A stretch of DNA of 64,000 bases from Pristiophorus japonicus (Eukaryota): assembly GCF_044704955.1 (NCBI RefSeq), contig NC_091984.1:241056001-241120000 (forward strand). The letters run 5' to 3'. A model generated the notes under the pieces. The model was not told where the DNA came from. It saw only the letters and a list, made by a program, of their open reading frames with translations, and searched no databases. Of this stretch, positions 21,946 to 64,000 are shown piece after piece. The stretch's first letter is position 1; every line of letters starts with the position of its first letter. The position numbers and the translations under genes are program-made.

Positions 21946-24900
21946 GTAACGCGGGAGCGGGGGGCCCTCTGTATATGTACTGTCCCCCTCTCCTCAAAAA
22001 CCAGCCCTCGACCCTCCGTCCCTCCAACCTCCCTCCCTCTCCCCTCCAACCTCCCTCTCCCCTCCAGCCTCCCTCTCCCCTCCAACCTCCCTCTCCCCTC
22101 CAGCCTCCCTCTCCCCTCCAGCCTCCCTCTCCCCTCCAGCCTCCCTCCTTCTCCCCTCCAACCTCCCTCCCTCTCCCCTCCAACCTCCCTCCCTCTCCCC
22201 TCCAACCTCCCTCCCTCTCCCCTCCAGCCTCCCTCCCTCTCCCCTCCAACCTCCCTCCCTCTCCCCTCCAACCTCCCTCCCTCTCCCCTCCAACCTCCCT
22301 CCCTCTCCCCTCCAACCTCCCTCCCTCTCCCCCTCTCCCCTCCAACCTCCCTCCCTCTCCCCTCCGAAGTCCTTGAACATGTTGTAGCCTCCCAAATCCG
22401 TGCCCATCTTTCCCAGAACTCCATGTTTGAATGCCTTCAATCTGGTTTCCGCCCCTGCCACAGAACCGAAACGACTCTCATCAACGTCACAAATGACATC
22501 TTTTGTGACTGTGACAAAGGTAAACTATCGCTCCTCGCCCTCCTGGACCTGTCTGCAGCCTTTGACACAATTGACCACTCTGTCCTCCTCCAACGCCCCT
22601 CCACCATCGTCCAGTTGGGTGGGACTGCACTCGCCTGGTTCCATTCCTATCGATCTCATTGTAGCCAGAGAATCGCCTGCAAAGGCTTCTCTTCCCACCC
22701 CCACATCGTTACCTCTGGTGTCCCCCCCCAAGGGTCAGTCCTTGGCCCCTCCGATTTCTCATCTATATGCTGCCCCTTGGCGATATCATCCGGAAACACG
22801 GCCTCAGTTTTGCGGAAAAACAGTGAGGCCAATAGTGAAACGGCTTGGGTTCCCAGGCTGGGAGTTACTGCCCTCTGTCCTTCTGTTCCACCATTTCCCT
22901 TAGTACCTCACTCAAGTGGCTGTGCTGCTGGTGTAAGCCTCGACAGTGAGGCTGGCTATCCAACCATGGGGGCATCACAAACAAGCGTGATCCTGTTCTT
23001 CACTCCAGAGACCAGCAACAGGCACTGGGCAGTGATCAGAGAAGCAATCCCGGCTGATTTCCCTTCCCTTATCCCAGAGCGCAGAGGCCTGGCCAACATC
23101 CACTAACTGAGTAGATTCACTCGATTTGCAGCAGAAGTGCTTCCACACAGGGTTAATAGAACATGGAATGCTTTACCACAAGGGGCCATTGAGGTTGAGA
23201 CTAGGAGATATTAGGACAGCTTGGTGAAAAAGGTTTTAAGGAGCGTATTATAGGAAGAGTGAGGGATGGAGAGGGTTAGAGAGGAAATCCCAGAGCTCAG
23301 CAGATGCTGAGTCAAAAGGGGGATGTAATACCTGAGCAGGAGTCAGTGATTTCAGGAGAGGAAGGGAAATGTAAGGTGAATGTAACACCCATTGCCTGTG
23401 TGTTTTCTTGCAGTCTGCAACAATCCCTCTGTTTATGAGCAACAAGGATGTGGCTGCAGAAGCTGTAAGTTGCCCGATAACCTTATTCTCTCTCTGCTGT
23501 TGGTTGAATGTTCTGCCACCGTTGGATAAACTGAAGTCTTCATTTAACACAGGTAACCGGCAGTGGGAAAACCTTGGCTTTCGTCATTCCTATTTTGGAA
23601 ATCCTGTTAAAGCGAGAGGAGAAGTTAAAGAAGCTGCAGGTTTGTACCTGGCGGGGATTCATTTATCCTGCATGCCGTAAAGTAAAGCTTCTCCATTCCA
23701 TGTGAATTGAGGGTTTTTTGGTTGTAAAATAGATATTAGTTGGAATTTGATTTCAGGGAATGTTCAGAGAGAGAGAGGGGTGTTACTTGGATCATTGTTA
23801 ACCCTCTCATCTCTGAGTCAGAGGGTCATGGGTTCAAGCCCTACTCCAGAGACTTGAGCTCATAATCCTTTCTTTAAGGAGGTGCCCCAAATTGTCTAGA
23901 AAAGCGCTATTTGGCCGAACTAATGCCTTGTACAGTTCATCATTACTCCGTATTCTGTATGCAATGCCTCTAGGTATAAAACCTTCCAGGCCTTATCGAC
24001 ATGCGCTGCCCCTTTTAATGACCTGTATCTCTGCTGTTCTATTCCATTTAAGGGCCCAGAAATTGCGGTTGGAGGCTTTCCGGGCGATGCCTCTGATCTG
24101 AAAAATCCATGAGGTTTGGAGATTTTTGGTCCTGGGCCTCTCTGTGAAGGCCTGGGCAGGGGCCACAAATTCAGGGCCAAAGTCTTTCTCCTTTCTCCAT
24201 TCTTGCTTCCTAGGGGTCTTGCTTCACAGTTTTCTTCGTTGAACTGTATCTGCCCACCTGGCCGTTCCTCCTTGTGCCCTGCATCCTTTCATAGTTTGCC
24301 TAACCCCCAATTTGGTGTCATCAGCAAATTTCAGTATCGTTCCCTCAGATCATAAGCCCAGATCATTTCTGTAATTATGAGCGACCCCAAACAGAGCCCT
24401 GTGGACGGCCACTTCTGCCATCTCTCCAGTCTGAGAAACTTTCCTCTCTCCCAGCCTCCACCCGTATGCTCTCCATGTGGTCGTATTCCTCTTAACAGCA
24501 CGTGAAATTATCTTTGCTGTATGTCTCGCATGTAGCATCCAGTCAGATTACCCAAACACATCCTCGCCCGATACAACTGACTGGGAGCAAAGTTGGAGCT
24601 GGACTTAAACCCAGGTTTGCCTAAAGTGAAAGGACAAAGTGATAAACCGCAGCACCATCCCCTCCCCATATCCCGGGGAATTCACAGCAAACATAGAAAC
24701 ATAGAAAATAGGTGCAGGAGTAGGCCATTCGGCCCTTCGAGCCTGCACCGCCATTCAATAAGATCATGGCTGATCATTCCCTCAGTACCCTTTTCCTGCT
24801 TTCTCACCATACCCCTTCATCTCTTTAGCCGTAAGGGCCATATCTTAACTCCCTCTTGAATATATCCAATGAACTGGCATCAACAACTCTCTGCGGCAGG

Positions 24901-63269: not shown

Positions 63270-64000
63270 TCCCTCAGTACTGCCCCTCCGACAGTGCGGC
63301 ACTCCCTCAGTACCGCCCCTCCGACAGTGCGGCGCCCCCTCAGTACTGTCCCTCCGACAGTGCGGCACTCCCTCAGTACCGCCCCTCCGACAGTGCGGCG
63401 CCCCCTCAGTACTGTCCCTCCGACAGTGCGGCACTCCCTCAGTACTGCCCCTCCGACAGTGCGGCACTCCCTCAGTACCGCCCCTCCGACAGTGCGGCGC
63501 CCCCTCAGTACTGTCCCTCCGACAGTGCGGCACTCCCTCAGTACTGCCCCTCCGACAGTGCGGCGCTCCCTCAGTACTGCCCCTCCGACAGTGTGGCTCT
63601 CCCTCAGCAACTGCCCCTCCGACAGTGCGGCACTCCCTCAGTACTGCCCCTCCGACAGTGCGGCACTCCCTCAGTACTGCCCCTCCGACAGTGCTGCACT
63701 CCCTCAGTACTGCCCCTCCGACAGTGCGGCACTCCCTCAGTACTGCCCCTCTGACAGTGCGGCACTCCCTCAGTACTGCCCCTCCGACAGTGCGGCACTC
63801 CCTCAGTACTGCCCCTCCGACAGTGCGGCGCTCCCTCAGTACTGCCCCTCCGACAGTGCGGCACTCCCTCAGTACTGCCCCTCCGACAGTGTGGCTCTCC
63901 CTCAGTACTGCCCCTCCGACAGTGTGGCTCTCCCTCAGTACTGCCCCTCCGACAGTGCGGCACTCCCTCAGTACTGCCCCTCCGACAGTGCGGCACTCCC
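63270..64000. repeat. 33-bp minisatellite, at least 22 copies, same unit as 30557-31055; runs off the window
   Basis: cagtactgcccctccgacagtgcggcactccct; preceded by a DeuSINE tail remnant at ~63185-63268. Confidence 0.97.

What the first reader, a model, noticed from the sequence alone, without database searches (positions are those of the whole stretch)
21980..64000. Minisatellites repeatedly seeded from different transposon classes
Seen: each of several arrays is a tandem amplification of a short segment of the TE it sits in, with the TE continuing colinearly on the flanks. Cases are L2 RT (22018), DeuSINE (30557, and 63270 where only the left flank is visible), hAT MITE (32495), CR1 3'UTR (44140) and probably a tRNA-SINE head (40434). 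Known: TE-derived satellites exist. Inference: six events from five TE types in ~42 kb suggest a region- or lineage-wide process that turns arbitrary 20-45 bp GC-rich segments into VNTRs, for example on a GC-rich microchromosome or subtelomere.
Basis: partly seen in the sequence, partly recalled or inferred. Interest (0 to 1): 0.7.

Follow-up and report, generated by a model that had tools for sequence, protein, structure and literature searches.

The report
Chromosome-end minisatellites inside old transposons
Near a chromosome end of a likely shark genome, short GC-rich DNA pieces have grown into tandem repeats both inside and outside jumping genes; two of them recur at many chromosome ends in nearly identical form inside old, decayed jumping-gene copies, likely because DNA repair copies the repeat from one such copy to another.

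Summary
All six arrays are real. The window lies 1.9 Mb from the end of a 243-Mb chromosome, in a DDX55-like gene. Five arrays derive from their TE (L2-type, SINE twice, hAT-type MITE, CR1-type). The tRNA-SINE claim at 40434 fails, and four more arrays have no TE match. TE origin is no commoner than TE coverage (5 of 10 arrays; 79 of 150 random sites). The cases are not six independent seedings. The SINE 33-mer (115,209 exact junctions) and the CR1 42-mer (147 boundary hits) are genome-wide families, concentrated at chromosome ends and present in other organisms. SINE array interiors share a derived base (97% of units; 1 of 32 plain copies) and are 3.8% from the family majority, while their hosts are 9.5% diverged and not a clade. 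This most likely needs copying between loci by gene conversion. Whether new arrays are seeded that way, or by an already doubled parent SINE, stays open: hosts are enriched for one younger flank haplotype. TE-derived, subtelomeric minisatellites are known (human, squamates). This scan noted the 33-mer family before on other DNA of this genome. Length polymorphism untested.

The parts
21844..47102 (+). DDX55/SPB4-type DEAD-box helicase gene, 14 exons (boundaries approximate); hosts most of the arrays in its introns
   Evidence: Pfam DEAD, Helicase_C, CTE_SPB4, CTT_SPB4 on 4 of 7 exons sent; SPB4 chains in PDB; exon frames. The name DDX55 is recalled.
21970..22810 (+). Decayed LINE RT fragment (L2-type by recall) hosting the 18/22-bp array; shares 18 private substitutions with two other loci
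   Evidence: RVT_1 E 7e-6, below the gathering score
22005..22357 (+). 18/22-bp array from the L2 segment; same boundary at only one other locus (C247)
30270..31120 (-). Old tRNA-headed SINE copy (Deu-domain type by recall) hosting a 33-mer family array
30558..31057 (+). SINE 33-mer array, 15 units, member of a genome-wide family with a derived C at unit position 3
   Evidence: left junction spanned exactly by a short-read contig (run X1 record 1)
32416..33600 (.). hAT-type MITE with TIRs and a 6-of-8 target-site duplication, hosting a private 28-bp array (32496-33529)
34550..35423 (+). G-rich complex array (16-43-bp periods), no TE match, about 20 bp after an exon
36667..37926 (+). Two adjacent C-rich arrays (29-bp and 32-bp units), no TE match, ending about 50 bp before an exon
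40433..41122 (+). Private 36-bp array, 19 units, no TE or tRNA match
41258..41387 (+). Small AT-rich 30-bp array (4.3 units) beside a CR1-like fragment
44141..45616 (+). 42/43-bp array, 35 units, made of the terminal hairpin of a CR1-type LINE (element on the minus strand, continuing to about 46180); genome-wide family
62565..62765 (+). GC-rich 29-bp array in a CpG-rich stretch, no TE match
63170..64000 (+). SINE remnant joined across a deletion to a 33-mer family array (63269 to 533 bp past the window end)

Best explanation
These are chromosome-end minisatellites, likely grown by recombinational DNA repair, of two kinds: private arrays amplified in place from whatever sequence was there, TE or not, and family arrays (SINE 33-mer, CR1 42-mer) whose near-identical units sit in old decayed TE copies at many chromosome ends and are likely copied between loci by ectopic gene conversion. 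Shown: distal position, TE origin of five units, no excess over TE coverage, family-wide derived bases inside arrays with TE-type bases at their edges, and units far less diverged than their hosts. Inferred: a break in or near a resident TE copy is repaired on an array-bearing copy elsewhere, using TE homology. This homogenises existing arrays and probably also seeds new ones, which then grow locally, with a bias towards G and C.
For: Position: SINE-to-array boundaries lie within 10 Mb of an end in 37 of 50 cases on C1-3, against 13 of 90 for plain SINEs; CR1 boundaries 29 of 40 on C1-20. Derived junction base: 115,209 exact C-junctions vs 1,923 A-junctions, the form simple slippage would give. 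C is in 97% of 187 internal units of randomly met arrays and in 1 of 32 plain copies. Of 34 two-unit copies, 32 have C; the 2 with A have identical units, one sharing a private base. Edges keep SINE-type bases: first unit A in 26 of 35, last unit C30 in 11 of 30 vs 35 of 428 internal units. CR1 does the same: first-unit T in 14 of 24 vs 29 of 437 internal. Age mismatch in 29 arrays: flanks 9.5% diverged, internal units 3.8%, per-locus majority 0.7%, private fixed differences in 6 of 29. Hosts are not a clade (18 label changes vs 19.2 shuffled; two-unit hosts 17 vs 19.3) and vary at four non-CpG flank sites as plain copies do. Two-unit copies are distal too (16 of 22 within 10 Mb). In organism E a different junction base carries 88% of contig depth. 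The L2 fragment is a mosaic shared with two other loci.
Against: Array and two-unit hosts are enriched for one right-flank haplotype (GGG at +8: 39 of 53 vs 12 of 41; G at +90: 33 of 49 vs 4 of 30). Two-unit hosts are less diverged on both sides (4-5% vs 7-10% on the left). This and the edge-base pattern are also what an already doubled, younger parent SINE predicts. Of 32 two-unit copies, 12 have C30 in both units, which a donor tract explains only with short tracts or biased repair. Divergence does not fall towards the array on either flank. The trees are star-like with no strongly supported branch, so one origin is not formally excluded. Most array loci were picked by exact patterns, which favours conserved copies. 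The TE-embedding test uses a 1.35-Mb library and misses diverged units (it missed the left side of the window's L2 and MITE cases). No recombination map or pedigree data.
Confidence: 0.58

Rival explanations
1. A younger SINE master already carried the doubled 33-mer (and a CR1 master a doubled end). It retrotransposed, copies near chromosome ends expanded locally, interior copies collapsed back to one unit, and conversion between loci only tidied the arrays later.
For: Explains first-unit A, internal C plus T30, last-unit C30 (TC 10 vs CT 1). Hosts are enriched for a GGG/C38/G90 right-flank haplotype and two-unit hosts are younger. All 5 unselected GGG monomers carry C30.
Against: Two-unit copies are almost all distal (16 of 22 within 10 Mb; the three deep ones sit in one C3 cluster), while GGG monomers occur interstitially, so nearly all interior dimers would have had to collapse. 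Hosts are polymorphic at -196, -40, +25 and +84. Without exchange between loci, units should be as diverged as flanks, but they are 3.8% vs 9.5%.
Confidence: 0.27
2. One reading: each array was seeded independently from its own TE copy by a regional process, with no exchange between loci.
For: Holds for the MITE 28-mer and the 36-mer, found only here, and for 2 of 34 two-unit SINE copies. Most distal arrays sampled are singletons: 24 of 61 fall into six multi-locus groups.
Against: Independent slippage predicts A at the junction and host-private bases throughout each array. Observed: C in 97% of units and private fixed bases in 6 of 29 arrays.
Confidence: 0.07
3. TE sequence is specially prone to become minisatellite, for example through hairpins.
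For: The CR1 unit is a strong hairpin (z -4.1) and the 36-mer a weaker one (z -2.2). One SINE segment gives 10 of 53 distal arrays.
Against: No excess over TE coverage. The SINE, MITE and 32-mer segments fold no better than shuffles.
Confidence: 0.05
4. The arrays or their junctions are assembly artefacts.
For: No raw long reads were available; array lengths are unverified.
Against: A short-read contig spans the 30558 left junction with no difference (may be the source sample). Both family units are deep in short-read contigs of several organisms. Edge units carry locus-specific bases.
Confidence: 0.03

Closest known systems
SINE-derived satellites (sSat1-3) of squamates, Vassetzky et al. 2023, PMC10702118 (read: part 1 of 5, passages, Discussion)
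   Same: Tandem repeats of part of a SINE at many loci, SINE sequence at the ends, subtelomeric, homogeneous within and between loci, one variant coming to dominate.
   Different: Units there are 70-290 nt, here 33 nt. A different SINE and lineage, and a LINE-end family as well. In what I read the authors invoke concerted evolution but do not compare host age with unit age or edge bases.
TE-derived human minisatellites, Ahmed and Liang 2012, PMC3389668 (read: parts 1-2 of 4); Jurka and Gentles 2006 seen only as a citation
   Same: 23% of 31,472 human minisatellites come from TEs of several classes, below the 44% TE share they quote; most clusters are single-locus (5,747 of 5,932).
   Different: Multi-locus clusters are few there (185), and a fifth of TE-derived repeats come from repeats already in LTR12 and L1PA consensus. 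Here one family has on the order of ten thousand loci (estimate) in old hosts.
Subtelomeric GC-rich VNTR enrichment in humans, Linthorst et al. 2020, PMC7608644 (passages)
   Same: VNTRs over 60% GC with units over 15 bp are 21-fold enriched in the last 5 Mb; 10 of the 11 arrays measured here are 60-82% GC.
   Different: Polymorphism is shown there and untested here; enrichment here extends to about 10-12 Mb.
Rsp-like satellite spreading into 1.688 clusters in Drosophila, Sproul et al. 2020, PMC7403614 (abstract and section 11)
   Same: A tandem repeat spreads to new loci by repair events that use an older, abundant dispersed repeat as landing homology.
   Different: There the host is another satellite and the junctions rest on microhomology. 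Here the host is the TE from which the repeat derives.
SVA-type VNTR carried inside a retroposon (recalled)
   Same: Tandem repeat at one fixed internal site of a retroposon.
   Different: Hosts here are old, individually decayed, not a clade, and arrays are confined to ends.

Membership tests
SINE-derived satellites (sSat type) | Repeat unit is a part of a SINE, shorter than the SINE | tested here: met
   33-bp unit aligns to plain SINE copies
SINE-derived satellites (sSat type) | [quoted passage not shown] | tested here: met
   928 exact left boundaries; 29 arrays with both flanks
SINE-derived satellites (sSat type) | Subtelomeric preference compared with the parent SINE | tested here: met
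   37 of 50 vs 13 of 90 within 10 Mb, p 2e-12
SINE-derived satellites (sSat type) | Unit of 70-290 nt from Squam1-3 SINEs | tested here: not met
   33-nt unit; works like an sSat, is not one of the named families
SVA-like composite retroposon | Array-bearing copies form a young clade with fixed flanks | tested here: inconclusive
   No clustering and 19% pairwise divergence, but enrichment of one right-flank haplotype
SVA-like composite retroposon | Copies dispersed like other retroposon insertions | tested here: not met
   Arrays and two-unit copies are distal
DeuSINE / SacSINE1 | tRNA-like head with a B box | tested here: met
   46 of 54 B-box-like contexts cluster as this SINE's end; no tRNA model was run on it
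DeuSINE / SacSINE1 | Identity to the published Deu-domain consensus | not testable with these tools
   No repeat library; label recalled. SacSINE1 is described as a 463-bp tRNA-derived SINE in PMC2746220 (passage)
hAT-type MITE | Short non-coding element with terminal inverted repeats | tested here: met
   About 175 bp with CAATGTTCCC...GGGAACATTG ends in most of 19 relatives
hAT-type MITE | 8-bp target-site duplication | tested here: met
   Perfect in L205, 6 of 8 in the window; read by eye, not scored for all copies
L2 LINE | RT domain of the L2 clade | tested here: inconclusive
   RVT_1 26.3 bits, cutoff 29.6; clade recalled, no tree built
CR1 LINE | 3' end with hairpin and short tandem tail | tested here: inconclusive
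   Hairpin z -4.1 and tail repeats in relatives; clade recalled
tRNA-SINE head (40434) | Similarity to a tRNA or a dispersed SINE head | tested here: not met
   only one SINE-head family was available as a profile
VNTR | Copy number differs between alleles | not testable with these tools
   No second haplotype or long reads of this species

The most novel reading that the evidence does not exclude
The SINE 33-mer and CR1 42-mer are 'homing' minisatellites: selfish tandem repeats that use the homology of their own dead parent TE to invade resident copies at chromosome ends by gene conversion. They would have converted some 40% of distal copies of the SINE (10 of 24 sampled) and replace their unit variant genome-wide in each shark lineage.
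Probability: 0.4. Interest if true: 0.75.

Novelty: new variant of a known kind. Interest (0 to 1): 0.5.

Why it matters
How the same satellite reaches thousands of separate loci is an open question. Here every array sits in an old TE copy that records the age and alleles of the landing site, so spread by conversion can be told from retrotransposition locus by locus. The families also mark chromosome ends and end-like interior regions in large shark genomes, and they are a likely source of inflated introns and false gene models.

Tried and rejected
Microchromosome: rejected, the contig is 243 Mb. C247 as the second allele of this locus: rejected, its flanks differ. tRNA-SINE head at 40434: five tests negative. 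TE enrichment: two tests, neither showed an excess. The lenient unit-only test gave 2 of 26 non-SINE33, non-low-complexity distal arrays vs 106 of 222 controls, but it misses known TE-derived units, so it is weak. Mid-chromosome samples as a baseline: set aside because 4 of 20 fell in arrays over 5 kb; 25%/75% arm samples were used instead. Hairpins as a general cause: only 2 of 5 segments fold better than shuffles. Linkage of the last-unit base with flank alleles, as a test of host origin: no clear linkage in plain copies, so uninformative. CR1 host divergence over 260 bp: only 10 of 30 rows aligned well; redone on 45 bp for 19 hosts (24%). Telomeric repeats at C3:228-236 Mb: none in 10 samples. 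Literature: no shark description of these families in four searches; the library lacks most subscription papers and repeat databases, and no supplements were read. A findings look-up with the CR1 array returned nothing.

Full report
Setting. The window is G000:C8:241,056,001-241,120,000 in a 5.92-Gb assembly. C8 is 242,990,514 bp, so the window lies 1.87-1.93 Mb from the end of a large chromosome. Most of the finding is a 14-exon DEAD-box helicase gene of the SPB4 type; the name DDX55 and the shark attribution are my inference and agree with earlier notes on neighbouring genes (unchecked).

Observation. TRF finds all six arrays and several more. By one rule (period 10-100, at least 5 copies, at least 150 bp) there are 10 arrays, all beyond 21980. 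Five derive from their TE. The L2-type unit matches a segment of 24 other copies, and the left flank is colinear after two deletions. The SINE array at 30558 has SINE on both sides. The 28-mer lies between the TIRs of a 175-bp hAT-type MITE. The 43-mer is the terminal hairpin of a CR1-type LINE, so the element continues on one side only. At 63269 about 190 bp of SINE are missing before the array. The 36-mer at 40433 has no TE or tRNA match, nor do the arrays at 34550, 36667, 37456 and 62565. TE class names are recalled; only the RT domain, TIR/TSD structure and SINE head were tested.

More than chance? Arrays are denser at ends: 53 in forty 10-kb samples 1.9 Mb from ends, against 14 in forty samples at 25% and 75% of chromosome length (27 vs 10 samples with an array, p 3e-4). 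TE origin is not enriched. In the window 5 of 10 arrays are TE-derived, and 79 of 150 random non-tandem sites nearby pass the same spanning test; in distal samples it is 9 of 37 vs 159 of 250. The test under-detects diverged units, so this shows no excess rather than a true deficit. Human data agree: 23% of minisatellites are TE-derived (PMC3389668, parts 1-2 read), and GC-rich VNTRs are 21-fold enriched near ends (PMC7608644, passages). In sharks, ends are GC-richer and short chromosomes hold more simple tandem repeats (PMC10620051, passages and section 9); higher distal recombination is inferred, not mapped (PMC13100897, passages).

Two kinds of array. The MITE 28-mer and the 36-mer occur only here (12 and 14 exact hits, all in the window). 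The L2 boundary occurs twice. The SINE 33-mer junction occurs 115,209 times. The first 100 hits fall in 13 arrays, which gives a rough estimate of 10,000-15,000 loci. Its left boundary occurs 928 times, 37 of 50 on C1-3 within 10 Mb of an end, against 13 of 90 for a matched plain-SINE pattern. In random samples 10 of 24 distal SINE copies carry the array and 0 of 14 interior ones. The CR1 boundary pattern occurs 147 times (some inside arrays, many in one C37 cluster), 29 of 40 on C1-20 within 10 Mb of an end. Twenty runs from 8 coded organisms and 7 studies hold about half or more of the words of the SINE stretch. Contigs laid from four runs each show both units at high depth; one organism may be the source species.

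Mechanism. Slippage at the GCAC repeat flanking the SINE segment would give A at unit position 3. That form has 1,923 hits. C is found in 97% of 187 internal units from 12 randomly met arrays and in 1 of 32 plain copies. Among 34 complete two-unit copies, 32 have C; the two with A have identical units and look like true local duplications. Edges differ from interiors: first unit A in 26 of 35 arrays, last unit C30 in 11 of 30 vs 35 of 428 internal units. CR1 arrays repeat this (first-unit T in 14 of 24 vs 29 of 437; 19 hosts 24% apart). In 29 arrays with both flanks, hosts are 9.5% from the SINE majority, internal units 3.8% from the family majority, and per-locus majorities 0.7%. The same segment in 15 unselected plain copies is 7.6% diverged. 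An isolated array cannot stay younger than its host, so exchange between loci is the most likely cause. Host trees show no clustering (57 of 60 and 57 of 62 rows used; star-like, unsupported). In organism E another junction base carries 88% of depth, as expected from family-wide turnover, though a few giant arrays could cause this. The L2 fragment shares 18 private substitutions with a copy 0.87 Mb away (99.3%, no array) and with a C247 copy (97.7%, same array and left deletions), a mosaic that points to local copying of dead TE sequence. Derived bases in the SINE (positions 3, 17), CR1 and L2 units are A/T to G/C, consistent with GC-biased conversion (inference).

Evidence against pure homing. 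I fetched all 34 two-unit loci. Their flanks are less diverged (7.3% vs 11.4%), and array or two-unit hosts are enriched for GGG at +8 (39 of 53 vs 12 of 41), C at +38 and G at +90. This fits a younger doubled subfamily, or conversion that favours close homologues and carries flank along. Against a single doubled master: hosts vary at four other non-CpG sites like plain copies, and two-unit copies are distal (16 of 22) while GGG monomers also lie in chromosome interiors. I put seeding mainly by conversion ahead, with the doubled parent a serious rival; both need exchange between loci.

Known relatives and novelty. SINE-derived subtelomeric satellites are described in squamates (PMC10702118; part 1, passages and Discussion read), and TEs as sources of tandem repeats are reviewed in PMC9659126 (passages). 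Spread of a satellite into an older dispersed repeat by repair is described in Drosophila (PMC7403614; abstract and section 11). Four searches found no shark account, in a library that lacks most subscription papers; supplements were not read. This scan noted the 33-mer family twice before in this genome. New here are the distal confinement against a control, the host-versus-unit age test, the CR1 family and the absence of TE enrichment. Verdict: real, mostly a known kind of phenomenon, with a testable and possibly new mode of spread.

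Noticed in passing
window 21945-45616: Five of eight array clusters in the gene start or end within 60 bp of an exon; 8.9% of array-free intron bases lie that close (p about 2e-4, post hoc, one gene, approximate exon ends).
   Followed up: partly
G000:C3:229-236 Mb; also C1:404.08 and C1:220.6 Mb: Interior clusters of SINE 33-mer arrays and two-unit copies. Ten C3 samples average 52% GC with 7 arrays but no telomeric repeat or 33-mer. Candidate relics of fused chromosome ends.
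   Followed up: partly
window 21977-22810, L002, L003: Three decayed L2 copies share 18 private substitutions in 445 bp and are mosaic; L002, L003, L028 and L295 also carry a 56-bp L2-derived array.
   Followed up: partly
L188/L037/L284, L072/L172, L171/L173, L171/L293: Four further multi-locus minisatellite families (49-51, 65-67, 27 and 63 bp) among 61 sampled arrays; the 49-mer matches dispersed repeat sequence.
   Followed up: no
run X12 (organism E), window 30592: The 33-mer junction reads GACCC in 88% of contig depth, against 2.5-10% in the three other runs: a lineage-specific family variant.
   Followed up: no
window 34550-35423 and 40433-41122: Units contain GGGCAGGACG and GAGCAGGAAG, close to the classic human minisatellite core (recalled; not tested against shuffles).
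   Followed up: no
G000:C37:17.06-17.27 Mb: About 30 CR1 42-mer boundaries spaced 2-8 kb apart, suggesting a higher-order tandem duplication.
   Followed up: no
L071, L084, L088, L175, L038, L149, L156, L160, L265, L282, L299, L304: Twelve 10-kb samples lie wholly inside single arrays of 14-55-bp units; L084 is the CR1 42-mer. Such blocks are a large share of this genome.
   Followed up: no
window 62300-63260: CpG-rich, 65% GC stretch that looks like a promoter island, flanked by two arrays.
   Followed up: no
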